From the NCBI GenBank assembly GCA_964551835.1, contig CAZKEM010000092.1:1598-65597 (forward strand): a stretch of DNA of 64,000 bases. The letters are read 5' to 3'. The notes below the pieces were generated by a model. The model saw only the letters and a list, made by a program, of their open reading frames with translations, had not been told where the DNA came from and searched no databases. Below, piece by piece: positions 10,326 through 59,976 of the stretch. The DNA comes from an uncultured Acidimicrobiaceae bacterium. Its GTDB lineage: Bacteria; Actinomycetota; Acidimicrobiia; Acidimicrobiales; SZUA-35. A program made the position numbers and the translations under genes. Positions within the stretch are counted from its first letter, which is position 1. Every line of letters begins with the position of its first letter.

Positions 10326-11732
10326 TTGTCTAACGTTGGCGCATTTCGGACTGAAACGGACTCGATGGGACCAATCGAGGTTCCCAGCGACCGCTATTGG
10401 GGAGCGCAGACCCAGCGAAGTATCGCGAACTTTCCGATTGGCAGAGATCGCTTTGTTTGGGGTCGCGCTGTAATCGAGGGCCTTGGTCTGCTCAAGTCCT
10501 GCGCTGCAACCGCCAACGGTGAGCTAGACCAGCTCCCCGAAGATGTCGTCGCGCTAGCCGTCGAAGCAGCTGACGAAGTCGCCGCCGGCAACCACGATGA
10601 TCACTTCCCTCTAGTCGTGTTCCAAACCGGATCAGGAACGCAGTCGAACATGAACTCCAACGAGGTAATTGCGAATCGGGCGATCGAGATCTCTGGCGGC
10701 ACCCTTGGGTCAAAGACTCCAGTTCACCCAAACGATCACGTCAACCGCGGTCAATCATCGAACGACACATTTCCTACCGCTATGCATGTCGCAACCCGCC
10801 TAGAACTCGAACGAGAACTCTTCCCAAAAGTTGGGAAACTTCGAGAGACCTTAAACGCCAAGGCCGAAGAGTACGCCGACCTTGTCAAAGTCGGTCGAAC
10901 GCACCTGCAAGACGCTACCCCAATCACCCTCGGTCAAGAAATAGGCTCATGGGTAGCACAGATCGACCAAGCTTTAGTCGGCGTCCACCAGGCCTCCGAA
11001 GGGCTATGCGAACTGGCGATCGGCGGCACGGCGGTTGGCACTGGACTCAACGCGCACCCGGAATTCGGTGATCGCGTGGCAGCCCTATTAGCTGAACGAA
11101 CCGGCCATCCGTTTACATCAGCCGAAAACAAATTCGCTGCCCTCGCGGCACACGACGCCATCGTTGCTACATCGGCATCGCTACGGACCTTAGCTGGAGT
11201 CCTTCTCAAGATGGCGAACGATGTTCGGTGGCTTGCTAGCGGGCCCCGAAATGGTATCGGGGAACTCGTTATCCCCGCTAACGAACCGGGGTCATCGATC
11301 ATGCCCGGAAAGGTAAACCCCACGCAGTGCGAGGCCATGACGATGGTTGCCGCTCAGGTGTTCGGTAATGATACTGCGGTCGCCTTTGCCGGCAGCCAAG
11401 GTAACTTCCAACTAAATGTCTTTAAACCCGTAATGGTTCACAACGTGATCGAAAGTATCCGTCTGCTCGGCGATACCTGCGTGGCCTTCAACGACAACAC
11501 AGCTGTCGGTATCGAACCTAACAGAGAGCGAATCCAACAAAACCTGGATCAGAACCTAATGCTGGTTACTGCCCTGAACCGGGCGATCGGTTACGACAAG
11601 GCCGCTGAGATCGCCAAATTTGCCCACAAGAACGGACTCAGCCTTAGAGACGCCGCTCTTAAGTTAGGGGTCACGGCAGCCGAATACGACGAGCTCGTCG
11701 TACCAATCAAGATGACAACTCCGACCAGCTAA
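10326..11732 (+). CDS. fumC: class II fumarate hydratase
   Basis: [16 protein letters not shown] signature. The N-terminus [24 protein letters not shown] matches the canonical FumC start. TTG at 10326 is preceded by GGAG 8 nt upstream. The ORF is open from 10128, but that extension looks non-coding. Confidence 0.9.
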
Positions 11733-11737
11733 GCGAG

Positions 11738-13555
11738 ATGGTGGTGCCAATACCTGGCGCCACCTCTAACAAATGGATTCATGTTACTAACAAATGGATT
11801 CGTGTGACCGATTGGTATGGCGTGAGTGTCAAAGCGCCTCCCGTAGAGGGCCAACAATGGTTCAACGCCGAACCCATCGTCTGGGATGAACTCCTCGGGC
11901 GTGTCGTCGTCTTGGTGTTTTGGGGCGCCGCTGACGAGGCTTCGTTGGCCAGAATCGCGCAAGTCCAAGAGCTATCCGCTTTGTATCCGAACTTGGCATC
12001 TATCGGGATTCACACTCCACGTCTTCCCTATGAGGACGATGCCGACAATGTTGCGTCAATTATCGGCCAGTACAACATCACTATCCCAATTGTCCATGAC
12101 CCTGAATATGTCACGTGGAACCGCTACAACCCTGATGGCTGGCCGACCACACTGGTCATCGATGACCGCCTGAACGCTATTGGCGTCCAGGCAGGCGTCG
12201 ACTACTTTGAAACGCTCAAGGAGGCAGTCTGGCTCGCTGTAAGCGTCGCAGACAAACGTCAAGTAGGCCAGGCTCGGCTTCCGCTCGGAACTCCTCAACT
12301 TCAGCCAGTCGACGAGTCCGGTTCACCTCTCCGTTATCCAAGCTGTGTTCGGGCGATATCTGACAACGAGCTAGTAGTCGTCGATTCGGGCCATGACCGG
12401 CTCCTAATCGCCGAGGTGAATACTGAGAACTCCACCGCTCGAGTCACTGCCACGATCGACGGGTTTGATAGTCCGGGGGCTATTGCGGTCCCCGATGACC
12501 CAAAGCATAAGGACAAACTTTTCGTTAGCGAGCCAGCAAACGGGTCGATTATAAGATACGACCGTTCGTTCGGAACGCGCTTTGTTCTCACCGACCAGCT
12601 CATACGACCGACTGGACTGTCCATGGATTATGACGGATCCTTGGTCGTGGCTGACTCCGCGTCTGAACAGTTGCTACGGATACCGAACCCCTACGCAGAC
12701 CAAGACATCCAGCTAGGCTTGATAGCCGGAAATGGGATGTCGGGAAGTGAAGACGGAACATCGACCAACGCCTCGCTGGCCCAACCAACAGCATTCGCAA
12801 GGACCGAGGTTGGTATGGTATTTTGCGACGCTGCAGCTAGCAGTCTGCGCCTCCTGACAGACAGCGGAAAAATTACAACCATTATCGGAGATGAATTTGA
12901 ATGGGGCCATGTTGACGGCCCCGCTCATCAAGCTAGATTGCAACGCCCAAGCGACTTGGCAATTTTGGGTGATGGTTCGATCATCATCGTCGATACGGGC
13001 AACGGCCGACTGAGGCGACTCTCCAAACGCCGTGTCGCTACGGTTGGACCAGAACAGCTCAACAGAGCAACCAGCGTTTGCGTGATGCCATCAGGGCACG
13101 TCATCGTCGCCGAAACAGGTTCAGACCAGCTAATTTTCATGAATTCAACGTTGAAGTCGGCCACACCGCTAGAACTCGAAGGACTAGCTGATGCCACCTC
13201 CGTTTCAATGGAGAATCCGGCAAGCTCAGAGTCGTCTTCAAACGGGCAAACGCCTCCTGGCACATCTCTCAGAGGTCTGGAAGGCGAACAGTTGGCCGTT
13301 AGCTATCCCTCGCCGTCGACGGGTCCATGGAATGTTTCGGTCCACTCAGAACCATCTACACTGCTGACCGGACCAATTTCGGTTACCAGAAACAGCTCCG
13401 CTGGCAAGGTTCAGGTCACCCTCGGTTCCGTTGGTAACGGCCAACTCATCGTCCGTTCAGACCTGATTCGCGACTCGACTGTCGCCGTATCAAAAAAATG
13501 GCAACTCGCCGTTACCGACGCCGAACAATCGGAATCATCTAACCTGAACAGTTAG
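11738..13555 (+). CDS. thioredoxin-fold (redoxin-like) domain fused to NHL-repeat beta-propeller protein
   Basis: 605 aa. The N-terminal block LLGRVVVLVFWGAADEASLARIAQVQEL...WPTTLVIDDRLNAIG resembles TlpA/AhpC-like redoxins but lacks the CxxC. It is followed by repeated NHL-like units (VVDSGHDRLL, VADSASEQLLRI, IVDTGNGRLRRL, VAETGSDQLIF). The start is uncertain; an in-frame GTG at 11804 is an alternative. Confidence 0.75.
   Translation: MVVPIPGATSNKWIHVTNKWIRVTDWYGVSVKAPPVEGQQWFNAEPIVWDELLGRVVVLVFWGAADEASLARIAQVQELSALYPNLASIGIHTPRLPYEDDADNVASIIGQYNITIPIVHDPEYVTWNRYNPDGWPTTLVIDDRLNAIGVQAGVDYFETLKEAVWLAVSVADKRQVGQARLPLGTPQLQPVDESGSPLRYPSCVRAISDNELVVVDSGHDRLLIAEVNTENSTARVTATIDGFDSPGAIAVPDDPKHKDKLFVSEPANGSIIRYDRSFGTRFVLTDQLIRPTGLSMDYDGSLVVADSASEQLLRIPNPYADQDIQLGLIAGNGMSGSEDGTSTNASLAQPTAFARTEVGMVFCDAAASSLRLLTDSGKITTIIGDEFEWGHVDGPAHQARLQRPSDLAILGDGSIIIVDTGNGRLRRLSKRRVATVGPEQLNRATSVCVMPSGHVIVAETGSDQLIFMNSTLKSATPLELEGLADATSVSMENPASSESSSNGQTPPGTSLRGLEGEQLAVSYPSPSTGPWNVSVHSEPSTLLTGPISVTRNSSAGKVQVTLGSVGNGQLIVRSDLIRDSTVAVSKKWQLAVTDAEQSESSNLNS
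11768..11809 (+). repeat. 21-bp tandem duplication (2 copies, 4 mismatches)
   Basis: aacaaatggattcatgttact / aacaaatggattcgtgtgacc, directly after the fumC stop. If translated it reads NKWIHVT-NKWIRVT. Confidence 0.85.
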
Positions 13556-39758: not shown

Positions 39759-40799
39759 TTAGAGTAACTGGAATCGTGGGTTGCCTTCCGTTACCGTGCC
39801 GACTACCGCCGCTCGGTGCCCGGTTTCTTCCAATTCTTGAACTACGTTCGCAGACTCGCCCGGGTCTACCCCAAAGACAAGTCCGCCTGAAGTCTGAGCA
39901 TCGGAGATCAACAGCTGGTGGGTTTCGGGGTGAGAACCGGGCTCAAATAGCTCGGCGCCCCATGACAGGTTCCGACGACTACCTCCGGGCATCACGCCTT
40001 CGTTCGCCAGCCCGACCGCTCCTTCGAGGAACGGAACCGATTCGAAGGCAACTGAAACCGCTACCTTCGACTCGATGGCCATACGTCCTAAGTGCCCCAA
40101 CAAGCCGAAGCCTGTTACGTCGGTGCATCCCGTCGCGCCAGCGGCCAAAGCGACGCTAGAAGCAGTATCGTTGAGGCGAACCATCGAATCCACGGCACCA
40201 GCCGCTATATCATCGGCAGCCTTGTCGGCCTTTATCGCTGTGGTGATAACACCGACACCCAACGGCTTGGTCAAGATCAGTTCTTGACCTGGCTTTAGAC
40301 CCGTGTTGGTCAAGATTCTTTTTGGATCAACCTCACCGGTAACCGACATTCCGTATTTGGGTTCTGGGTCGTCGATCGTATGGCCGCCCACGATCGCAAA
40401 GCCGCCAGCAGTTGCCACATCCTGACCGCCCGCTAATACTTCACCTAGCAGTGATGTTGGCAACGCTTCGGTGTTCCAGCCGACGAGATTGAGAGCAAAC
40501 ATTGGCTTGGCTCCCATTGCGTAGATGTCAGAGACGCTATTCGCCGCCGCCACACGACCCCACGTTCGGGCGTCATCGACAACCGGCGTGATAAAGTCAG
40601 CCGTCGAAACTAGTGCCCGCCCTTCGTCGAGTTTCCATACCGCCGCGTCGTCGCCCGTTGAAGGTCCGACCAACAACTCTTCTGTGGTGTCCGTCTGCAA
40701 ATCACGCACAACGTGCGCGAGCTCGCCTGGGGCGAGTTTGCAGCCTCAACCGGCTCCGTGGCTGAACTGGGTAAGTCTAAACGATGTTGGTTTGCTCAT
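39759..40799 (-). CDS. selD: selenide, water dikinase (selenophosphate synthetase), selenocysteine-containing form
   Basis: The track ORF (39759..40709) lacks the SelD N-terminus. Reading upstream in the same frame gives MSKPTSFRLTQFSHGAG-TGA-GCKLAPGELAHVV-RDLQ..., where the TGA (40748..40746) sits at the position of the active-site Cys/Sec of GxGC/UGCK. The rest matches SelD (DDAAVWKL, STADFITPVVDD, AANSVSDIYAMGAKP). Confidence 0.85.
40716..40748 (-). promoter_or_regulatory. in-frame UGA plus candidate bacterial SECIS hairpin of selD
   Basis: UGA GGCUGCAAA CUCGC-CCCAG-GCGAG CUCGC. The stem starts 10 nt after the UGA. The alternative self-complementary GCGAGCUCGC adjoins it. Confidence 0.5.
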
Positions 40800-40900
40800 T
40801 GTGCTCTTCCACCCATCCAGATTCATTACGTCGCAACCATACTTTACTGACAAAAGCCAGCCTCGACTGACCATCGAAGGCTACAAACGTTGGCTGTCTC

Positions 40901-42556
40901 CTACCTTAGACTTCTCCTGATCCAAGACGACACCAAGTCGACTAGTACCGTGACGAGCAACAGAGCGACAATAGTGGCCAGAACGCCGTCGTAGTCGAAC
41001 GATGAAGTCTGTTCGCTAAGCCGACGTCCGAGGCCTGCCGCTCCAACGACGACAAGTATCACGGTTTCACGGACAACTACTTCCCAACGGTAAAGGCTCA
41101 ATGCTGTGAAGCGTCCAGCCACCGCAGGCATCGTGGAATACAGCAAGGTGCCCGGAGCGGACGCACCCATTGCACGCAATTCCTCATTAGGGCGTCGATC
41201 ACGGTTTTCAAGAACTTCTGCTTGGAGGCGACCAAGGATACCTGCATTGTAAATACCGAGGGCGACTACCGCAGGCCAAAGCCCGGGAAACAAAACAAAC
41301 ACAACAACGAATGCCCAAACCGGTGGCGGCACAGATCGACTAACAAGCATCGCGAACCGGGTGAGCCTCGAGCACAACCTCCGGAAACGGGCTTTCTGTT
41401 GACCAGGCCCTGGTCGCTGAGCTACAAACGCCAACGGTGAGCCAACGACGACGGCCAAAGCGATCGAAAGGATGGCTAATGCTACGGTGTGCAACGAGTC
41501 TTCAACCAACTCGGCGATGCCACCCGGACCAACTTGTGGGGGCCACGCATCAGCCAACAGTCCCCCGGCCAATGACCGGGCACGAGGCGCCCACAACGTC
41601 GACAGATCCAGATTGAGCCTCCAGATTGCAACCGGGACGCCGACAGCGCAGACCAGAGCACTAAGCCGCAAGAAACGATCGCCGGCAGGCCGCCACGAGT
41701 TCATGCCAACTTCTACCGCAGCCATCCTGCGGCGACGCCGGACCGATGAGGACCACCAGTCTGCGACGCCACTCAAAAAAATTAGCGCCCAAAGGAAGGT
41801 CCACATCTGGTCATAGCGCAACGACTGGAACGAAAGGGCGAGCTGGAAACCTAGACCACCGGCTCCAACAATTCCTAGAACTGCCGCACTTCTCAGACTG
41901 CACTCGAACCTATAGAAGGCATATGAGAGTAAGTCATTCAGCGCGTGGGGTACTGTCGCAACTAGCAGGGCGGTAATCCGGCCGGCGCCGGTGGCCCGCA
42001 AATTCAACTCGGGGCCTTTCGGAACCTCGTCGAGCAACTCGGCAAATACCTTGGCAGTTACAGCACCGAACGGGATACCAATGGAGAACACGGCCACGAG
42101 CGGGTTTAGGCCCAGAATATTCACCAAGATCAGACCAAAAACGATCTCATGCATCGAGCGCGGAACGACGAAGGCCAGCTTCGCCCCGAGCCAACCAATT
42201 CGACCTCGACCCATAGGTCTATGACCTGAACTCCAGAGGCGCTCGCTCAGCAGAATCCCTCCAACAGAACCGATGACTAGTGCCAGCGCCGTTCCGACCA
42301 ACGCATAGCCGATAGTCACCGCCGACTCCCGCACGGTCAGCTCCAGGATGTTCGGACTCAGGTCGGGCCTAAACATCGCTCCGAAGAACGACCGGACTTG
42401 TGACCATCCCCGAGGGTTAACCAGCTCAGTCGGATCGATTCCTGCCACCCAGGCGGAGCAACCCACGGCGACCCCGAGGGCTGCAAGCCAACTAAGGCGA
42501 ACGCGATCGTTTGGCTTTCGCGGCACATCCAGCCCAGCGGAAACGTGGCGTTCCAT
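40901..42556 (-). CDS. phnE: phosphonate/phosphite ABC transporter permease, fused double PhnE
   Basis: 551 aa with two PhnE-like modules. Each ends in the family block YRFECSLRSAAVLGIVGAGGLG / YRWEVVVRETVILVVVGAAGLG. Confidence 0.8.
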   Translation of the reverse strand: MERHVSAGLDVPRKPNDRVRLSWLAALGVAVGCSAWVAGIDPTELVNPRGWSQVRSFFGAMFRPDLSPNILELTVRESAVTIGYALVGTALALVIGSVGGILLSERLWSSGHRPMGRGRIGWLGAKLAFVVPRSMHEIVFGLILVNILGLNPLVAVFSIGIPFGAVTAKVFAELLDEVPKGPELNLRATGAGRITALLVATVPHALNDLLSYAFYRFECSLRSAAVLGIVGAGGLGFQLALSFQSLRYDQMWTFLWALIFLSGVADWWSSSVRRRRRMAAVEVGMNSWRPAGDRFLRLSALVCAVGVPVAIWRLNLDLSTLWAPRARSLAGGLLADAWPPQVGPGGIAELVEDSLHTVALAILSIALAVVVGSPLAFVAQRPGPGQQKARFRRLCSRLTRFAMLVSRSVPPPVWAFVVVFVLFPGLWPAVVALGIYNAGILGRLQAEVLENRDRRPNEELRAMGASAPGTLLYSTMPAVAGRFTALSLYRWEVVVRETVILVVVGAAGLGRRLSEQTSSFDYDGVLATIVALLLVTVLVDLVSSWIRRSLR

Positions 42557-42564
42557 CAGGTACT

Positions 42565-43311
42565 TCAGAGCTCGTCAAGCTTGTAGAGGTCGTCGAGTAG
42601 CTCATCTGTGACGTCGGCCGACGGAAGGTCGAACTGCACGCTACCGGATCGTAAACCCACGATCCGATCGCAGTGTTGAAGCGCCAGAGCGGCGTCGTGC
42701 ATGCTCATGATCACGGTCTTTGTGGACGCAGAGTTGCCCTTCTTAGTCAAGATAGCCATTACTGAGTCGGAACGAGCTGGGTCTAGCGAACTGACTGGCT
42801 CGTCGGCCAACAACAAGTCCGGGCCCTGAAACAGCGTCCGCGCGATCGCCGTGCGTTGTTGCTGGCCACCAGAAAGCTGATCGGTACGGTCCCAAACTTT
42901 GTCGCCGATCCCTACTTGGTCGAGCGCCTGCATTATCTCGTCAATCGGACCGGGGCGAAACAGTGTCGCCACCGCCTGCCGTGCTGACCGGCTGCCCAAG
43001 CGACCGGCGGCCACATTGTTTGCAACCCGAAGACGCCCGACCAACGAAAAATCTTGGCTAATGATGCCAATCCGAGACCGCTGAGATCGATACGCCCGGC
43101 GACCAAGGTCACGCGAATCGACCCCGAAGATCTCAACCTTACCTTGCGTCGCCAACGTCAGTCCAGAGCAAAGACGTAAAATGGTCGACTTACCAGCTCC
43201 CGACGGGCCGACAAGCCCGACGCGCTCTCCGGCTCGAATGTTAACGGTCAGTTGGTCGATGGCAGCGTCGGTGCTCTCAGGGTACCGAACCGTCGCCCCA
43301 TCGATCGACAC
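42565..43311 (-). CDS. phnC: phosphonate ABC transporter ATP-binding protein
   Basis: Walker A GPSGAGKST, signature LSGGQQQR, Walker B LLLADEP. GTG 43311 lies 8 nt after the phnD stop and gives a PhnC-like N-terminal length. Alternatives are ATG 43377 and the ORF maximum at 43428, both overlapping phnD. Confidence 0.85.
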   Translation of the reverse strand: MSIDGATVRYPESTDAAIDQLTVNIRAGERVGLVGPSGAGKSTILRLCSGLTLATQGKVEIFGVDSRDLGRRAYRSQRSRIGIISQDFSLVGRLRVANNVAAGRLGSRSARQAVATLFRPGPIDEIMQALDQVGIGDKVWDRTDQLSGGQQQRTAIARTLFQGPDLLLADEPVSSLDPARSDSVMAILTKKGNSASTKTVIMSMHDAALALQHCDRIVGLRSGSVQFDLPSADVTDELLDDLYKLDEL

Positions 43312-43318
43312 AATTGAC

Positions 43319-44215
43319 TTAGCCGTCGATCTGGCCAGTCTCTCGGCCGACGGTTTCGATGCTGTCGTAGTTTCCATTTTCGGTTTCGATAAAGGACTCC
43401 GCACCAAAGAAATCAAGAATTTCTGCATGTTCTGGGTCGTCTGAATCGAGCTTCATCAATGCGTCGATTATTTCGGTCTGAAGGTCTGCGTCGACCTCGG
43501 GGCGGACGACCCAATGGTAGTCGTAGTACGTTGGCGTCTCGAAAACGACGTCGACTTTAGTGAGGTCAACGTCTCCCGTTTCAACCCTGGCGTCCCAAAC
43601 CTGAGAATTTAAGACACCGACCTCGAACGTGCCTGCTTCAACAAGTTTTATGGTGGCGTCGTGCGATCCGCTGTACACTGGCTCGCCATCAAATTCGTCC
43701 AGAGAAACCCCTGCTTCGCCCAGAAACGATTGTGGCATGAGTCGGCCTGAGGTACTCGATTCGGAACCGAACGTAAGACTTCTTCCGGCAAGCACGCTGA
43801 GTCCCTCCACGTCGGTTATCGGCTCTATTCCAGAATCTGTGGCAGCTATAAAGACCGAAGTAAATTTCTGGTCAATATCACGTTGAGCAATCGCCTCAGC
43901 ACCCTCGACCCGTAAGCGAGCCTGCACCCCGGTTAGACCTCCAAACCAGGCGAGGTCTAGGTCACCTACGCCAAATGCGGTAACCGCTGCTTCATATTCG
44001 GTAACCGGCTCAAACCGCACTTCCATATCTAGTTCTTCAGACAGATAGGCGGCAACGAGCTCGAAGTTGCGAGCTAATACCTCAGGTTCCTGATCGGGAA
44101 TTGCCCCGATGACTAGCGGGCCTTCAAACCCGCCAGCGGCTTCCGCTTGTTCAGCGGAGCCACACGCTGAGGCTAGTAAGACCAGTACAGACAATATTGA
44201 TAACAGGCGACGCAT
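43319..44215 (-). CDS. phnD: phosphate/phosphite/phosphonate ABC transporter substrate-binding lipoprotein
   Basis: 298 aa. Lipobox LLASAC. PhnD-type TFGSESSTSG motif. Confidence 0.85.
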   Translation of the reverse strand: MRRLLSILSVLVLLASACGSAEQAEAAGGFEGPLVIGAIPDQEPEVLARNFELVAAYLSEELDMEVRFEPVTEYEAAVTAFGVGDLDLAWFGGLTGVQARLRVEGAEAIAQRDIDQKFTSVFIAATDSGIEPITDVEGLSVLAGRSLTFGSESSTSGRLMPQSFLGEAGVSLDEFDGEPVYSGSHDATIKLVEAGTFEVGVLNSQVWDARVETGDVDLTKVDVVFETPTYYDYHWVVRPEVDADLQTEIIDALMKLDSDDPEHAEILDFFGAESFIETENGNYDSIETVGRETGQIDG

Positions 44216-47576: not shown

Positions 47577-49151
47577 ATGGCAAAGAAACCCCCAATATTC
47601 GACTCCCGCCTTGTAGGAGCGGCTGCCGCCGTCGCTTCTATGGGTTCCGCCGAGCTTCTAGCTGCAGCAATGCGCCCCCACCCTGGGCCGGTGGTCGCCG
47701 TCAGCGCTCGGGTGGTCGCCTACGCTCCAACATGGTTTGTTGATCTCGGAAAGACGTTGTTTGGGTTTTCGGACAAGGTGGCGTTGTTGATCGGGACGGC
47801 GATCCTGACCGTTGTGATCGGTTCGCTGCTGGGCAAGCTGGGGCGAGAACGCATGGACTGGGCTCTTGTAGGAATTGGAGTGATGCAAGCAATCGGCTTC
47901 GCGTCAATGGTGAGCGATGACAATGGAACAGCCGGAACATCGATGTTTCTCACCATCGCAGGAACGTTGGCCGGCGTCATCGTCTTTGTGGTTCTGATGG
48001 GCCTAATCACGCCAATCCGTAAGCCTGCCGACGGCCAGGGCTCAGAGATATCCCCGACCAACCCCCCGGTTGGTCGCCGCACGTTTCTGGCTGCCGCCGG
48101 CGTTGTCACTGCGTCGGGCGCAATCATGGGCGTTGGTGGAACCCAGCTCCGAGATCGGGGCTCGGCAAACACGACGGCTACCGGGGCGTCTTTTCCACCA
48201 TCGCCTGACGCCAAAGCGGTCGACTCGCTTGTCGAAGAAGCAAACGGGTCGGTTGTCGGGCTGACCGAGAGTATTACCCCAGCTGTGGTACCCAACGACG
48301 ACTACTATCGGATAGATACTGCGCTGTTCGTCCCGAGTATCAACGCCCGCGACTGGTCGCTGACCATAGATGGTTTGGTCGATAACCCTCTGACGTTATC
48401 TTATGACGAACTCGTAGAACGTTCCACGACAATCAAACCGGTTACCCTGTCGTGCGTATCAAATGAGGTGGGCGGGCCGTTGGTTGGCAACGCTGTTTGG
48501 CAGGGAGTACCGTTACAGGATCTCTTGGAAGAAGTAGGAGTGAAGCCCGAAGCTACCCAAGTCGCTAGCTTTGCCGACAATTGGTCATGTGGGTTTCCGA
48601 CCGCAGCACTCGATGATGATAGGACAGCTCTCGTCGCTGTTGGGATGAACGGCGAGCCGCTGCCCAACCAACATGGTTTCCCGGCTCGATTAGTTGTTTC
48701 TGGGCTCTATGGCTACGTGTCAGCCACCAAGTGGCTCAGGCGGATCGAACTGACTACTCTGGAAGACTTCGATGGGTTTTGGATCGACAAGGGTTGGGCC
48801 AAGATCGCTCCGGTCAAGACCCAGGCCCGGATCGACGTTCCCTTCCCGTCACAAGAGTTCGACGGTTCGAGCCCGATCGATATCGCCGGGGTCGCATGGG
48901 CGCCCAACATCGGCGTCGAACGGGTCGAGATCCAAGTCGACTCCGGACCATGGATTGAGGCAGAACTCGGGACCAGCTTGGGCCCTGACGCATGGCGTCA
49001 ATGGCGGGTGAAATGGGAAGGCGAACCTGGCGAACATGTGGTGCAGGTGCGGGCGACGCGGGCTGACGGCGAAGTTCAAACAGGAGATGTTGCCGAGCCA
49101 GCGCCCGACGGGGCGACAGGGTGGCATTCCCGTAGGTTCATCTCGTTCTAA
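47577..49151 (+). CDS. molybdopterin-dependent oxidoreductase (sulfite-oxidase family) with N-terminal membrane domain
   Basis: 524 aa. About 4 TM helices, then a Moco domain (LTLSCVSNEVGGPLVGNAVWQGVPLQDLL, GFPARLVVSGLYGYVSATKWLRRIEL) and an Ig-like dimerisation-type C-terminus. Confidence 0.8.
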   Translation: MAKKPPIFDSRLVGAAAAVASMGSAELLAAAMRPHPGPVVAVSARVVAYAPTWFVDLGKTLFGFSDKVALLIGTAILTVVIGSLLGKLGRERMDWALVGIGVMQAIGFASMVSDDNGTAGTSMFLTIAGTLAGVIVFVVLMGLITPIRKPADGQGSEISPTNPPVGRRTFLAAAGVVTASGAIMGVGGTQLRDRGSANTTATGASFPPSPDAKAVDSLVEEANGSVVGLTESITPAVVPNDDYYRIDTALFVPSINARDWSLTIDGLVDNPLTLSYDELVERSTTIKPVTLSCVSNEVGGPLVGNAVWQGVPLQDLLEEVGVKPEATQVASFADNWSCGFPTAALDDDRTALVAVGMNGEPLPNQHGFPARLVVSGLYGYVSATKWLRRIELTTLEDFDGFWIDKGWAKIAPVKTQARIDVPFPSQEFDGSSPIDIAGVAWAPNIGVERVEIQVDSGPWIEAELGTSLGPDAWRQWRVKWEGEPGEHVVQVRATRADGEVQTGDVAEPAPDGATGWHSRRFISF

Positions 49152-56389: not shown

Positions 56390-57127
56390 TTAGTGGTCGT
56401 TTGCCGCTTGTTCAAGGTGAGACCAGTCCGAGGTCGACAAATCCTGGCTCGCTTCGGGGCGAGAATCCAATCGTGGGCGACGAAATACTATTCGGCGGGA
56501 CGGGTTCTTTAGCGGCCGCTTTCTCCGACGTGACCCTTTTACTTTGAGGGTCGGATCTGCAGTTTCGGTTCCATCACCATCATCTAAGTCGTCCTGCCCT
56601 AAAGCGAGGTGACCCTGCCGGACTCGATCGTGGCCGGCCCGCTGGGCCGCCACAGGTATAGCGACCTGGCCGATATCGGACGCCTTCGGAATGTTCAAGT
56701 TCGGCGGCTCTGCCCGCTTTCGAACGTAACGTTCACGACGAACCAGGCGTCCACCAATTTGGATAGCGACACCCAGGTACAACACAAGCGCCAACGCAAC
56801 TGTGGCGGCCAGAACCAAGAAGGGGCCCCGTAGTACGATCGCTAACGCACAGGATGCGATGGTCATCGCGGCCAACGCTATTAGAAGTTGCCGACGACGA
56901 GCGAATAACCCCTGAGATCTCCAGTTACGAACCGGGCCAAACATCGGTTGGAGCAAAATGAGCCCAAGCGACCTAACCGAAGGACGCCTGTAGTCGATAC
57001 CCCCGTCCGAGGACCTCATGCGGCGCACTAAATAGGATATTTTGGACAGCACTGGTCGGCCTAAAACGTACAGCCAAGCGACGACGAGAATCCCCGCAAC
57101 GACAAGGTTAAAGACCGAGGTGTTCAT
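56390..57127 (-). CDS. hypothetical basic membrane protein
   Basis: 245 aa. About 3 TM helices and an Arg/Lys-rich C-terminal half. The start overlaps the moaC stop (ATGA). Confidence 0.5.
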   Translation of the reverse strand: MNTSVFNLVVAGILVVAWLYVLGRPVLSKISYLVRRMRSSDGGIDYRRPSVRSLGLILLQPMFGPVRNWRSQGLFARRRQLLIALAAMTIASCALAIVLRGPFLVLAATVALALVLYLGVAIQIGGRLVRRERYVRKRAEPPNLNIPKASDIGQVAIPVAAQRAGHDRVRQGHLALGQDDLDDGDGTETADPTLKVKGSRRRKRPLKNPSRRIVFRRPRLDSRPEASQDLSTSDWSHLEQAANDH

Positions 57128-57672
57128 CGAGGGAGAGGCCCGAAGGAGTCTCCACCCGGTTCCTCACCACCTGCCGCTTCGACCCGCTTGTACGGGCCAG
57201 AACGCCCACCTGTCTTTTCCCATAACGCTATGTCTGAAATGACCATCGACTTGTCGGCCGACTTACACATGTCATAGATAGTTAGCGCAGCGACCGAACA
57301 AGCGGTCAGCGCTTCCATCTCAACGCCGGTTCGGTCAACTGTGTCGACTTCTGCTTCAACTTGAATATGGTTGTCGCCAATATTGAAACTCACATTCACA
57401 GCGCCCACCGTTACGTTATGACATAACGGGAGCAGGTCAGACGTCTTCTTAGCTGCCTGGATCGCCGCTATCCGAGCGACAGCCAAAACATCGCCCTTTG
57501 TGACGGTTCCCCTGGCCACAAGATCAGTCGTTTCCGGCCGCATGTAAACGCGCCCACGAGCTACCGCTCGTCGAAAGGTCGGTTCCTTCGGCGTCACGTC
57601 GACCATACGCGCTCGGCCAATAGGATCTAGATGAGTTAATTTGCGATCTCCCACAAGGCCAAGATAGTGCAT
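57124..57672 (-). CDS. moaC: cyclic pyranopterin monophosphate synthase
   Basis: LTHLDPIGRARMVDVTPKEPTFRRAVA, KGDVLAVARIAAIQAAKKTSDLLPLCH, TGVEMEALTA. Confidence 0.85.
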   Translation of the reverse strand: MHYLGLVGDRKLTHLDPIGRARMVDVTPKEPTFRRAVARGRVYMRPETTDLVARGTVTKGDVLAVARIAAIQAAKKTSDLLPLCHNVTVGAVNVSFNIGDNHIQVEAEVDTVDRTGVEMEALTACSVAALTIYDMCKSADKSMVISDIALWEKTGGRSGPYKRVEAAGGEEPGGDSFGPLPR

Positions 57673-57690
57673 TTTGTGGTGACTGGTCGA

Positions 57691-58707
57691 CTACCCGCCT
57701 ACTTGGCTCATAGATTTCGTTGGCCTGACGAAGTAAACCTGCCCGATATTGTGTCCGGCCCGTTTGCGCTCGACCTCGCCGACGATGGCGTCGGCCAATT
57801 CAGAGTCGCTTTTTCCTGCTCGGAGTAACGCTCGTAAATCCAAGTGTTCGAGCGCAAAAAGACAGTTTCGTAACTGACCATCGGCGGTCAGACGAATCCG
57901 GTCACATGATTCGCAGAATGGCTCGCTTACGCTGGCGATGATTCCAAACTCGCCGCCTTGGGCATTTTCACCCAAATCGGGAAAAAGTTCAGGCTTTACT
58001 TCAAATTGGAATCGTTCTGCGGGAGACGACCCTCGAGTAATCTCTTCATAGCGATATCGATTCGAGACCTGTTCCAAGATCTCAGCGGATGTCACAACGC
58101 GATCCTGGGACCACTGCTCGCTTGCATCTAGCGGCATAAATTCGATAAATCGTACCGTCACACCCGTCTTGCGACCGAATTCCAAAAAGTCGATGACTTC
58201 AGAATCATTAATCCCTTTCATCAACATTGCGTTGACTTTCACGGGATCAAATCCGGCCTGTTTAGCAGCGTCAATTCCCGCCAATACCTGTGGCAACTGG
58301 TCGCGTTTAGTCAAGTCCGCAAATGTTTGACGATCGAGTGTATCGAGACTGATGTTTATGCGGGACAGACCAGCGCCGTAAAGATCTTTCGCTTGGTGCT
58401 CCAACGTTGCACCGTTAGTCGTCATCGACAATTCGACACCCAAGCTAGCCAATTGTTCAACCAAGAGATGTAGCTGCTTACGCAGCGTAGGCTCTCCCCC
58501 GGTCAGGCGAATCGATTTGAGGCCGAACCGCTCGACTAAGACGCTGGCCACCCGGTAAATCTCGTCGAAAGACAAGACGTCAGACCGTTTAAGCCAGACC
58601 ATACCTTCCTCCGGCATGCAATATTGACACCGGAAATTACATCGATCGGTCACGGAGATTCTGAGATCTCTATGTACGCGTCCAAAGGTATCGGTCAGAT
58701 CTTCCAC
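57691..58707 (-). CDS. moaA: GTP 3',8-cyclase (radical SAM)
   Basis: LRISVTDRCNFRCQYCMPEEG, RLTGGEPTLR, C-terminal CESCDRIRLTADGQLRNCLF. Confidence 0.9.
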   Translation of the reverse strand: MEDLTDTFGRVHRDLRISVTDRCNFRCQYCMPEEGMVWLKRSDVLSFDEIYRVASVLVERFGLKSIRLTGGEPTLRKQLHLLVEQLASLGVELSMTTNGATLEHQAKDLYGAGLSRINISLDTLDRQTFADLTKRDQLPQVLAGIDAAKQAGFDPVKVNAMLMKGINDSEVIDFLEFGRKTGVTVRFIEFMPLDASEQWSQDRVVTSAEILEQVSNRYRYEEITRGSSPAERFQFEVKPELFPDLGENAQGGEFGIIASVSEPFCESCDRIRLTADGQLRNCLFALEHLDLRALLRAGKSDSELADAIVGEVERKRAGHNIGQVYFVRPTKSMSQVGG

Positions 58708-58716
58708 ATTCTTAGA

Positions 58717-59976
58717 CTACTCGTTCAGGACCGAACTGGAGAATACCGAATCATCGGTTAACAAGACCTTCACTCGACCGCCAGCCGCGGCTTGTGCTCC
58801 GTCGGGTAGAACAGCAAGCGCGTTCGATGCCGCCAACGCACGCAATTGGTGCGACCCCTGGCCTCCCGCATATCGGACGTGCAGAGCCCCGTCGCTCTGG
58901 TTTGAGGCAACCACTCTGACGAAGTGCGTCTTGCCATCCAAGCGTCGCCGCATCGGCTCATCGGCAATCGCCGTGACCAGCCGACGAAATGGCTTTGAGT
59001 CACCGAGCATCATGCGCAAACTAGGGCGGGCGAACAGTTCGAACGAGACCGACGCCGAGACCGGGTTACCGGGCAAACCAAATATAGGTGTGTCGTTCAC
59101 CAGGCCGAACGAGAGCGGCTTTGCTGGCTTAATCGCAATTTGCATCCAGTCATGATCGCCTAGACGACTAAGTACTTCTTTAACCGGGTCGTAGTCCCCC
59201 ATCGAAACTCCACCAGAACTGACAATCGCGTCGCAGTCCGCAGCGCCGGCGACAAAAGCAGCTTCGACTAAGGCTTCGTCGTCGGCCACATGACCGAGGT
59301 CGACGGGCGTACACCCAGCCGCCTCGACTTGGGCAAGAAGCATCGGGCGGTTGGAGTCATAAATTTGACCAGGACCCAACGGAGTTGGCGGCGCCAACAA
59401 TTCGTCTCCGGTCGAAATCACCCCGACGCGGGGACGCTGGTATACCTTGATGGTGGCGAGACCCGTCGATATCAGGAGGCCAATATGGCTTGCATCAAGT
59501 ACGGTGCCAGCGGTTACCACAATGTCGCCTGGCTCGACGTCGCTTCCCGCTGGGCGGAGATGGTTACCAATGTCAATAGCCGCGTGTAGCGACACAGACT
59601 CGGTTCCCGCTTCAGCGTCGAAATGGGCTTCGGTCAATTCCACCTTGATGACCGCATCGGCACCCTCGGGCAACGGGGCGCCAGTCATTATTCTCATCGC
59701 CTCGCCGCGCCTAAGTTCTCGGCTCGCCGTCGTTCCAGCAGGGATGGTTTCAACTACGGGCAGCTCAACCGGCTCTGTGGCAGAAGCAGCCGTGGAGTCG
59801 GCAGCGACAATAGCGAAACCATCCATCGCGACACTGATGAACGGCGGCATCTGAATAGCCGAAGCCACCTCCTGGGCTGGGACGAGTCCCACAGCGTCGC
59901 AAACATCTACCTCGACCACCGGGTTGGGCCTAACGTCTTCAAAAACCCTGGCCTGGGCATCACTGAGCGAAATCAT
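58717..59976 (-). CDS. moeA: molybdopterin molybdotransferase
   Basis: 419 aa. MDGFAI, TGDEL, SSGGVSMGDYD, PGNPVSA. Confidence 0.85.
   Translation of the reverse strand: MISLSDAQARVFEDVRPNPVVEVDVCDAVGLVPAQEVASAIQMPPFISVAMDGFAIVAADSTAASATEPVELPVVETIPAGTTASRELRRGEAMRIMTGAPLPEGADAVIKVELTEAHFDAEAGTESVSLHAAIDIGNHLRPAGSDVEPGDIVVTAGTVLDASHIGLLISTGLATIKVYQRPRVGVISTGDELLAPPTPLGPGQIYDSNRPMLLAQVEAAGCTPVDLGHVADDEALVEAAFVAGAADCDAIVSSGGVSMGDYDPVKEVLSRLGDHDWMQIAIKPAKPLSFGLVNDTPIFGLPGNPVSASVSFELFARPSLRMMLGDSKPFRRLVTAIADEPMRRRLDGKTHFVRVVASNQSDGALHVRYAGGQGSHQLRALAASNALAVLPDGAQAAAGGRVKVLLTDDSVFSSSVLNE

What the first reader, a model, noticed from the sequence alone, without database searches (positions are those of the whole stretch)
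39759..40799. selD is itself Sec-encoding: an in-frame UGA restores the missing active-site N-terminus
- The track ORF starts at RDLQTD... and lacks the glycine-rich N-terminal loop of selenophosphate synthetase.
- Translating the same frame upstream gives ATG(40799) MSKPTSFRLTQFSHGAG-TGA-GCKLAPGELAHVV, which joins the ORF.
- In E. coli SelD this segment is SHGAGCGCK, and some bacteria are known to have Sec at that Cys.
- A short hairpin (CUCGC-CCCAG-GCGAG, 40736..40722) lies 10 nt after the UGA.
- This shows the lineage has the Sec-decoding trait, with the known auto-dependency that SelD needs Sec to make Sec.
- No selA, selB or tRNA-Sec is in this window. selD sits alone between an aldehyde dehydrogenase and the phn operon.
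Basis: partly seen in the sequence, partly recalled or inferred. Interest (0 to 1): 0.7.

Follow-up and report, generated by a model that had tools for sequence, protein, structure and literature searches.

The report
Selenocysteine-encoding selD with two-hairpin SECIS
The gene for the enzyme that activates selenium (SelD) is itself read through an in-frame UGA as selenocysteine, which is a real but well-known arrangement in bacteria, and here it sits beside a putative selenate importer, not a phosphonate operon.

Summary
Window 40799..39759 (-) is one 346-codon selD reading frame with a single in-frame TGA (40748..40746) at the position of catalytic Cys17 of E. coli SelD.

Main evidence:
- All 47 closest Acidimicrobiales orthologues keep TGA at that codon; more distant relatives have TGC/TGT.
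- The 10 codons upstream are under purifying selection: 216 synonymous vs 21 nonsynonymous codon differences.
- Two adjacent hairpins downstream covary in 66 Sec-type genes and are degraded in the 11 Cys-type genes.

It fails the published bacterial SECIS model.
- The second hairpin (H2, 40720..40702, GUU loop, 33 nt after UGA) meets that model and is the likelier SelB site.
- The "phn operon" neighbour matches the putative selenate ABC transporter family (TIGR04553). In five relatives, selenoneine genes (senA/senB-like) lie between this transporter and the UGA-selD.

Machinery: selA, selB and tRNA-Sec are absent from the window but present in related genomes that carry a UGA-selD. One MAG has all four.

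Sec-containing SelD is one of the two most widespread bacterial selenoproteins, so novelty is low.

The parts
39759..40799 (-). Full selD coding sequence (346 codons including one Sec codon, plus TAA stop)
   Evidence: Translation. With U replaced by C it scores TIGR00476 selD 370.8 bits (cutoff 125) and NF002098 355.6 bits (cutoff 299), aligned from model position 1. It aligns to E. coli SelD 3u0o over residues 5-335, E = 5e-75.
40797..40799 (-). ATG start codon, 17 codons upstream of the Sec codon
   Evidence: Verified. Several orthologues (L001, L003, L004, L007, L010) start with M at the same distance from the TGA.
40746..40748 (-). In-frame TGA = Sec codon (residue 18), homologous to Cys17 of E. 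coli SelD
   Evidence: TGA in L001-L047 (47/47); TGC/TGT in 11 more distant relatives.
40722..40736 (-). Conserved accessory stem that does not fit the bSECIS model.
   Evidence: -8.2 kcal/mol, z = -3.75. 88.5% of cells paired, and 4 of 6 pairs with changes on both sides, in 66 Sec-type sequences. Cys-type genes keep 3.0 of 6 pairs. The loop is CCN with no G, and the UGA-to-loop distance is 15 nt, so it fails the criteria quoted.
40702..40720 (-). Hairpin H2 (UCGCGCAC-GUU-GUGCGUGA), +26..+44 after UGA. Best candidate for the SelB-binding SECIS stem-loop.
   Evidence: -10.5 kcal/mol. 95.6% of cells paired, and 5 of 8 pairs with changes on both sides. Predicted independently by RNAalifold. Loop GUN in 68/68 Sec-type genes. 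33 nt from UGA to loop, 8-bp stem, 3-nt loop, which meets all bSECIS criteria. Cys-type genes keep 4.7 of 8 pairs.
40707..40709 (-). GTG used as start by mechanical ORF calling. It lies inside the 3' arm of H2 and is an internal Val codon, not a start.
43319..44215 (-).
   Evidence: TIGR04553 327.1 bits (cutoff 250); PhnD equivalog TIGR03431 only 122.6 bits (cutoff 261.1). Pfam Phosphonate-bd.
42565..43428 (-). ABC transporter ATPase of the same operon
   Evidence: Pfam ABC_tran 113.6 bits.
40901..42556 (-). Fused double PhnE-type permease of the same operon. It ends 101 nt upstream of the selD start, on the same strand.
   Evidence: TIGR01097 311.6 bits, two stretches; Pfam BPD_transp_1. Only a weak terminator-like hairpin at 40879..40861 lies in the gap.

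Best explanation
Window 40799..39759 (-) encodes a full-length, functional selenophosphate synthetase (SelD) whose catalytic N-terminal loop residue is selenocysteine, encoded by UGA at 40748..40746.

Proposed mechanism (inferred): SelB carrying GTP and Sec-tRNA(Sec) is recruited by an mRNA element immediately downstream in the coding sequence. That element is two adjacent hairpins. H2 (GUU loop, 33 nt after UGA) has the features of a SelB-binding bacterial SECIS. H1 is a conserved accessory stem, perhaps a structural spacer.

The gene lies downstream of, and is co-oriented with, a putative selenate ABC importer. Together these would form a selenium uptake and activation module. The selenophosphate made would feed Sec synthesis through selA, selB and selC elsewhere in the genome. 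In relatives that carry senA/senB beside this gene, it would also feed selenoneine-type metabolite synthesis.

Shown here: the reading frame, SelD family membership, the Sec/Cys pairing, purifying selection upstream of the UGA, RNA covariation, and the machinery in relatives.

Inferred: actual Sec insertion, which hairpin binds SelB, co-transcription with the importer, and the transporter's substrate.
For: Reading frame and family:
- One frame with a single TGA.
- Passes two SelD equivalog cutoffs from model position 1.
- The TGA aligns to Cys17 in SHGAGCGCK of E. coli SelD, and the GDDAAV, S(T)xDF, SDIxAMG and TDVTGFG motifs are conserved in the alignment.

Conservation of the UGA:
- TGA in 47/47 closest orthologues, and in 67 of the 78 related loci where the motif was located. 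Cys codons in the other 11.
- In the upstream 10 codons, variation is concentrated at third positions (entropy 1.08 vs 0.26 and 0.15), with 216 synonymous vs 21 nonsynonymous codon differences.
- TGA ends 10 of 38 long frames in the window, so it is otherwise a stop.

RNA structure:
- 92.5% of cells paired vs 26-47% in slid controls.
- 9 pairs with changes on both sides.
- Covariation 0.316 vs <=0.073, with 0/500 shuffles reaching it.
- RNAalifold gives the same two hairpins.
- H2 meets the published bSECIS criteria.

Machinery in UGA-selD genomes:
- L011 has selD(UGA)-selA-selB contiguous (Pfam SelA 328.6 bits and SelB-wing_3).
- MAG JBGCFW has UGA-selD (L024), selA/selB (L198) and tRNA-Sec (L329).
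- CALIOL has UGA-selD (L010) and selA/selB (L178).
- Chromosomes OZ245048.1 and OZ241894.1 each carry UGA-selD and tRNA-Sec.
- These tRNAs have a UCA anticodon and a G discriminator.

Transporter.
Against: - The window's own genome could not be searched, so selA, selB and selC are unverified for this organism. None is in the 64-kb window.
- There is no experimental evidence of Se incorporation.
- Both loop sequences coincide with conserved residues (Pro CCN; Val GUN), so loop conservation alone cannot be separated from protein constraint.
- The assignment of H2 rather than H1 as the SelB site rests on a consensus model, not on binding data.
- H2's loop lies at the far end of the allowed 16-37 nt range.
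- No Rfam family matches.
Confidence: 0.9

Rival explanations
1. The reader's hairpin H1 (40736..40722) is the SelB-binding SECIS, and H2 is incidental or has another role.
For: H1 starts 10 nt after UGA, close to the 11-nt spacing of the minimal E. coli fdhF element (own knowledge). It covaries, with 4 of 6 pairs changed on both sides. It is degraded in Cys-type genes, which keep 3.0 of 6 pairs.
Against: [quoted passage not shown] Both fall outside the published bSECIS model. H2 is better conserved (95.6% vs 88.5% of cells paired), and its loop is GUN in 68/68 Sec-type genes.
Confidence: 0.2
2. The UGA is decoded as cysteine, not Sec, by a tRNA-Sec-like tRNA(ReC) delivered by SelB. This would remove the auto-dependency.
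For: Such tRNAs exist and decode SECIS-dependent UGA as Cys (Vargas-Rodriguez et al. 2018, as cited in PMC13582414). The window's own tRNA set is unknown.
Against: The tRNAs found in three UGA-selD relatives have a UCA anticodon and a G discriminator, which is canonical tRNA-Sec by the criterion in PMC13582414; tRNA(ReC) has U. selA, which is needed only to make Sec-tRNA(Sec), is present in these genomes.
Confidence: 0.04
3. The gene is a pseudogene or a truncated SelD translated from GTG 40709, and the upstream frame is a decaying remnant.
For: Mechanical ORF calling starts at GTG 40709. No Sec machinery is in the window.
Against: The upstream codons are under strong purifying selection: 216 synonymous vs 21 nonsynonymous differences, with RLTQFSHGAG nearly invariant. 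The TGA is conserved in 47/47 orthologues. The truncated product would lack the Sec/Cys17 and Lys20 loop that SelD catalysis requires (own knowledge of E. coli SelD mutants). GTG 40709 is an internal Val codon inside H2.
Confidence: 0.02
4. This gene works as SenC, the dedicated selenophosphate synthetase of a selenoneine-type pathway, rather than as the housekeeping SelD for Sec synthesis.
For: In L003, L004, L006, L016 and L027 a SenB-like and a SenA-like gene lie between the same transporter and the UGA-selD. NF041186 SenA scores 443 bits against a cutoff of 420. TIGR04348 SenB scores 297 against 300. PDB SenB 8fbx matches at 7e-44, and SenA/OvsA at 2e-65 and 4e-73.
Against: No senA or senB homologue is in the 64-kb window or in its closest relative L001. 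In L011 the same UGA-type selD sits directly in front of selA-selB. None of the 77 further Ilumatobacteraceae-type selA loci fetched (73 with selB alongside) has a second selD nearby. So this clade's SelD most likely serves Sec synthesis, and both roles where sen genes exist.
Confidence: 0.1

Closest known systems
Sec-containing bacterial SelD (selenophosphate synthetase selenoprotein family)
   Same: Same enzyme family, the same Sec position in the N-terminal Gly-rich loop, an in-frame UGA followed by a coding-region SECIS, and the known self-dependency. SelD and FdhA are described as the most widespread bacterial selenoproteins, with actinobacterial examples listed (PMC1794560; PMC13188914).
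   Different: This example is from an uncultured-type Acidimicrobiales/Ilumatobacteraceae lineage, at most 77% identical to any species representative. The downstream element is two adjacent covarying hairpins rather than the single stem-loop of the consensus model.
E. coli SelD (PDB 3u0o), Cys-type
   Same: Alignment over residues 5-335, E = 5e-75. SHGAG-x-GCK loop and the Asp-containing motifs are conserved.
   Different: E. coli has Cys17 (TGC-type) where the window has UGA, and it has no SECIS.
E. coli fdhF SECIS / published bSECIS consensus model
   Same: H2 has a small apical loop starting G-U, an 8-bp stem, 33 nt from UGA (allowed range 16-37) and -10.5 kcal/mol (limit -7.5 or lower). 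Sequences whose top pair is G.G expose a GGUNG loop resembling fdhF's GGUC (fdhF loop from own knowledge).
   Different: An extra conserved hairpin (H1) sits between the UGA and the SelB-type hairpin. The spacing is near the upper limit of the model.
sen cluster (senA/senB/senC) for selenoneine, with associated putative selenate transporter
   Same: A SelD homologue next to a TIGR04553-type transporter. Five relatives add SenB-like and SenA-like genes at the same locus. The founding paper notes a putative selenate transporter near many clusters.
   Different: The window lacks senA and senB within 64 kb. The characterised SenC was expressed in E. coli as an ordinary protein, and none of the passages I read in that paper describes SenC as a selenoprotein.

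Membership tests
SelD, selenide water dikinase (TIGR00476 / NF002098) | Whole-protein HMM score above the curated equivalog cutoff, full-length coverage | tested here: met
   370.8 bits vs 125 and 355.6 bits vs 299; protein residues 8-313 and 5-339, from model positions 1 and 4.
SelD, selenide water dikinase (TIGR00476 / NF002098) | N-terminal Gly-rich loop with Sec/Cys (E. coli Cys17) and Lys20 | tested here: met
   SHGAG-U-GCK aligned to SHGAGCGCK of 3u0o.
SelD, selenide water dikinase (TIGR00476 / NF002098) | Selenide- and ATP-dependent selenophosphate synthesis | not testable with these tools
   Needs an enzyme assay.
Bacterial selenoprotein gene (Sec-UGA plus bSECIS) | In-frame UGA aligned with Cys in homologues and conserved in orthologues, with coding conservation on both sides | tested here: met
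   47/47 closest orthologues have TGA, 11 relatives have TGC/TGT. Upstream codon differences: 216 synonymous vs 21 nonsynonymous.
Bacterial selenoprotein gene (Sec-UGA plus bSECIS) | Downstream stem-loop meeting the bSECIS model (3-9 nt loop, 4-16 bp stem, G in the first two loop positions, 16-37 nt from UGA, MFE <= -7.5) | tested here: met
H2 meets all criteria: GUU loop, 8 bp, 33 nt, -10.5 kcal/mol.
Bacterial selenoprotein gene (Sec-UGA plus bSECIS) | Structure supported by compensatory changes, and lost in Cys-type homologues | tested here: met
   9 pairs with changes on both sides; covariation 0.316 vs <=0.073 when slid. Cys-type genes keep 3.0 of 6 and 4.7 of 8 pairs, against 5.3 of 6 and 7.6 of 8 in Sec-type.
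Bacterial selenoprotein gene (Sec-UGA plus bSECIS) | selA, selB and selC present in the same genome | not testable with these tools
   The window's genome is not in the collection (best hit 77%). None of the three is in the window. The feature is met in relatives: L011, JBGCFW, CALIOL, OZ245048.1, OZ241894.1.
Bacterial selenoprotein gene (Sec-UGA plus bSECIS) | Selenium actually incorporated at the UGA | not testable with these tools
   Needs 75Se labelling or mass spectrometry.
senC of a selenoneine (sen) cluster | Co-localised senB (TIGR04348) and senA (EgtB homologue) | tested here: not met
   No tblastn hit to the L006 SenB-like or SenA-like proteins anywhere in the window. The pair is present in L003, L004, L006, L016 and L027.
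TIGR04553 putative selenate ABC transporter (neighbouring operon) | Substrate-binding protein above the family cutoff, with adjacent ABC ATPase and permease | tested here: met
   327.1 bits vs 250; PhnD equivalog not met (122.6 vs 261.1). ATPase and permease.
TIGR04553 putative selenate ABC transporter (neighbouring operon) | Transports selenate | not testable with these tools
   The family is a 'hypothetical equivalog', so the substrate is putative.
tRNA(ReC)-mediated UGA-to-Cys recoding | tRNA-Sec-like tRNA with a U discriminator base | tested here: not met
   The tRNAs in three UGA-selD relatives have a G discriminator and a UCA anticodon (criterion). The window's own genome was not testable.

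The most novel reading that the evidence does not exclude
The two-hairpin element is a distinct SECIS architecture specific to Sec-type selD and shared across phyla (Actinomycetota, Gemmatimonadota, Myxococcota). The first hairpin (H1) does not bind SelB. By folding, it would shorten the effective distance so that the GU-loop hairpin (H2) sits about 10-11 nt from the UGA in space (9-nt spacer, folded H1, 1 nt). Coupled to an adjacent selenate importer, the Sec-dependent SelD would then form a selenium-gated positive-feedback switch for all selenium use, including selenoneine synthesis in relatives.
Probability: 0.25. Interest if true: 0.45.

Novelty: already known. Interest (0 to 1): 0.2.

Why it matters
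For annotation, the gene should be called from ATG 40799 with a Sec exception at 40748..40746. The mechanical call from GTG 40709 starts inside the SECIS and removes the catalytic loop. The same truncated ORF from an internal GTG is produced mechanically in L006 and L011 and probably affects many MAG annotations.

A Sec-type selD marks this Acidimicrobiales lineage as Sec-decoding. Together with the re-identified selenate-type importer, and the sen-like genes in relatives, it points to active selenium metabolism in a poorly cultured aquatic and soil actinobacterial group.

None of this changes current understanding of Sec biology.

Tried and rejected
- Rfam gave nothing relevant, at gathering thresholds on the whole window and at permissive thresholds on 40500-40950.
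- The outer closing stem of the window's minimum-energy fold (CUGCAAA/UUUGCAG, 40743..40737 with 40701..40695) looked attractive. Only 5 of 68 Sec-type sequences can form 6 or more of its 7 pairs, so it is not part of the conserved element.
- A scan of the window for other ORFs interrupted by a single TGA gave 26 mechanical candidates. Only 40748 has a selenoprotein-like context; the rest are gene boundaries or off-frame noise.
- The window's own genome is not among the species representatives (best SelD hit 77%). Direct searches for its selA, selB and selC were therefore impossible.
- The first SelA search, with the L049 query, sampled a different clade and linked only L011. Repeating it with L011's SelA gave the CALIOL and JBGCFW links.
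- Sigma-70 promoter and terminator scans around selD were uninformative: one weak terminator-like hairpin, and counts no higher than in shuffles.
- My regex for the tRNA discriminator base was off by one. I used the ARAGORN drawings and printed sequences instead.
- A second, divergent Cys-type SelD (about 35% identity) seen in some sel operons (L131, L261, L265) was considered as a way round the auto-dependency. It was not found next to any of the 77 further selA loci fetched with L011's SelA.

Full report
**Observation.** On the minus strand, window 40799..39759 is a single reading frame of 346 codons plus TAA. It reads MSKPTSFRLTQFSHGAG*GCKLAPGELAHVVRDLQTD..., with one internal TGA at 40748..40746. 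The window holds no tRNA gene, no Rfam match and no SelA or SelB homologue.

**Identity of the protein.** With the stop replaced by Cys, the full-length product passes both NCBIfam SelD equivalogs. TIGR00476 scores 370.8 bits against a cutoff of 125, and NF002098 scores 355.6 against 299. The alignment starts at model position 1, so the upstream extension is the true N-terminus. Against solved structures the best match is E. coli SelD 3u0o (E = 5e-75, residues 5-335). The TGA falls on Cys17 of SHGAGCGCK, and the GDDAAV, S-x-DF, SDIxAMG and TDVTGFG motifs are conserved. The catalytic roles of Cys17 and Lys20 come from my own knowledge of E. coli SelD.

**Comparative evidence that the UGA is decoded.** A search of species-representative genomes returned 80 related loci. 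The closest are Acidimicrobiales/Ilumatobacteraceae MAGs at up to 77% identity, so the window's own genome is not in that collection.
- All 47 closest orthologues (L001-L047) have TGA at the homologous codon. Over the 78 related loci where the motif was located, 67 have TGA and 11 have TGC or TGT.
- The 10 codons before the TGA vary almost only at third positions (entropy 1.08 vs 0.26 and 0.15). Against the window they show 216 synonymous and 21 nonsynonymous codon differences. That stretch is therefore translated in this frame and is under purifying selection.
- TGA ends 10 of 38 long frames in the window, so it is an ordinary stop elsewhere.
- A pseudogene, a sequencing error or a protein starting at GTG 40709 cannot explain these data.

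**The RNA element.** The 61 nt after the UGA fold into two adjacent hairpins inside a closing stem.
- Across 66 Sec-type sequences the two hairpins are paired in 92.5% of cells, against 26-47% when the 3' partners are slid.
- Nine of 14 pairs show changes on both sides.
- The covariation score is 0.316, against 0.073 or less in slid controls, and 0 of 500 shuffles reach it.
- RNAalifold independently predicts the same two hairpins.
- Several compensatory changes alter the protein in a coordinated way. Examples are His-Val (CAC..GUG) switching with Gln-Leu (CAG..CUG), and Leu..Glu (CUC..GAG) switching with Ile..Asp (AUC..GAU).
- The 11 Cys-type genes keep only 3.0 of 6 pairs in H1 and 4.7 of 8 in H2, against 5.3 and 7.6 in Sec-type genes.
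- The outer closing stem is not conserved: 5 of 68 sequences can form it.

**Which hairpin binds SelB.** The published bacterial SECIS model requires a 3-9 nt loop, a 4-16 bp stem, a G in the first two loop positions, 16-37 nt between UGA and loop, and an MFE of -7.5 kcal/mol or lower (PMC13188914).
- H2 (40720..40702) meets every criterion: 8 bp, GUU loop, 33 nt, -10.5 kcal/mol. Its loop is GUN in 68 of 68 Sec-type genes.
- I infer that H2 is the SelB-binding stem-loop and that H1 is a conserved accessory. This assignment is model-based, not experimental.
- The GTG that ORF callers take as the start is an internal Val codon in the 3' arm of H2.

**Decoding machinery.** L049 supplied Acidimicrobiia SelA and SelB sequences from a compact tRNA-Sec/selD(Cys)/selB/selA cluster.
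- In this order selA-selB is usually a separate operon.
- UGA-type selD and the machinery co-occur in the same genomes. L011 has selD(UGA)-selA-selB in a row (Pfam SelA 328.6 bits and SelB-wing_3).
- MAG JBGCFW (Ilumatobacter SGMAG-118) has UGA-selD (L024), selA/selB (L198) and tRNA-Sec (L329).
- MAG CALIOL has UGA-selD (L010) and selA/selB (L178).
- Chromosomes OZ245048.1 (L006 and L260) and OZ241894.1 (L032 and L321) carry both UGA-selD and tRNA-Sec.
- These tRNAs have a UCA anticodon, an 8-bp acceptor stem and a G discriminator. By the criterion in PMC13582414 that is canonical tRNA-Sec, not the Cys-inserting tRNA(ReC).
- For the window's own organism the machinery remains untested.

**Genomic context.**
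The substrate-binding protein (43319..44215) passes TIGR04553, 'putative selenate ABC transporter substrate-binding protein' (327.1 bits, cutoff 250). It fails the PhnD equivalog (122.6 bits, cutoff 261.1).
- The ATPase (42565..43428) and the fused PhnE-type permease (40901..42556) follow on the same strand. The permease ends 101 nt before the selD start, with only a weak terminator-like hairpin in the gap.
- The closest relative, L001, has the identical order: transporter, selD, convergent aldehyde dehydrogenase, M50B peptidase.
- In L003, L004, L006, L016 and L027 a further pair of genes accompanies the same transporter and the UGA-selD. It lies between them in the first four and beyond the transporter in L027.
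- One of that pair is SenB-like: TIGR04348 296.8 bits against a cutoff of 300, and PDB SenB 8fbx at E = 7e-44.
- The other is SenA-like: NF041186 443.3 bits against 420, PDB OvsA at 4e-73 and SenA at 2e-65.
- This is the senA/senB/senC selenoneine-type layout, whose founding paper also notes a nearby putative selenate transporter.
- The window has no senA or senB homologue within 64 kb, so I do not file its gene as senC.

**Rivals.**
- H1 as the SelB site is possible but less likely (0.2).
- Cys insertion by tRNA(ReC) is unlikely given canonical selC and selA in relatives (0.04).
- A pseudogene or truncated protein is contradicted by the data (0.02).
- A dedicated SenC role is unlikely for this window (0.1). 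In L011 the same clade's gene heads the selA-selB operon, and no second selD accompanies any of the 77 further selA loci fetched with L011's SelA.

**Comparison with what is known.** Sec-containing SelD is a textbook case. [quoted passage not shown] The self-dependency is also discussed there. The finding is therefore correct but already known in kind. The modest additions are the two-hairpin covarying element shared with Gemmatimonadota and Anaeromyxobacter Sec-type selD, and the link to a selenate-type importer and, in relatives, to sen-like genes.

**Limits.** There is no experimental evidence. The source genome is not available. Both loop sequences coincide with conserved residues.

Noticed in passing
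window 40901-44215 (-): The three-gene ABC transporter beside selD is not a phosphonate system by curated cutoffs. Its binding protein passes TIGR04553 (putative selenate ABC transporter, 327 bits vs 250) and fails the PhnD equivalog (123 vs 261). It is co-oriented with selD and ends 101 nt upstream of it.
   Followed up: yes
L006 7569-9898 (also L003, L004, L016, L027): A SenB-like selenosugar synthase and a SenA/OvsA-like selenoxide synthase accompany the selenate-type transporter and the UGA-selD in five relatives. They lie between the two in four of them and beyond the transporter in L027. In L006 a methyltransferase follows selD (11422-12231). The pair is absent from the window and from L001, which suggests loss or relocation of a selenoneine- or ovoselenol-type cluster.
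   Followed up: partly
L131 4979-5914; L261 6270-7208; L265 5989-6990: Some Acidimicrobiia sel clusters (tRNA-Sec, selB, selA) contain a divergent Cys-type SelD-like gene, only about 35% identical to the window's SelD (N-terminal motif LTSCGGCAAKW in L131). I did not test whether such a paralogue ever coexists with a UGA-type selD.
   Followed up: no
L006 10076-11026; L011 1062-2012: In related assemblies the mechanical ORF for selD also starts at an internal GTG just after the UGA. Truncated SelD calls are therefore probably common in MAG annotations of this order.
   Followed up: no
window, whole (38 stop-to-stop frames of 250 aa or more): Stop usage among long frames is TAG 15, TAA 13, TGA 10 at 55% G+C, so TGA is the least used stop. 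The count includes some spurious frames and was not refined.
   Followed up: no
L048 2851-2946; L049 731-826: The two Acidimicrobiia loci with a Cys-type selD closest to the Sec-type clade have tRNA-Sec immediately upstream of selD, with selB (and selA in L049) on the opposite strand. In Sec-type genomes selD, selAB and selC are mostly dispersed.
   Followed up: partly
window 47577-49151 and 57124-59976: A sulfite-oxidase-type molybdoenzyme (Oxidored_molyb) and a MoaC-MoaA-MoeA molybdenum cofactor block lie in the window. No formate dehydrogenase or other usual selenoprotein family was seen among the ORFs scanned.
   Followed up: no
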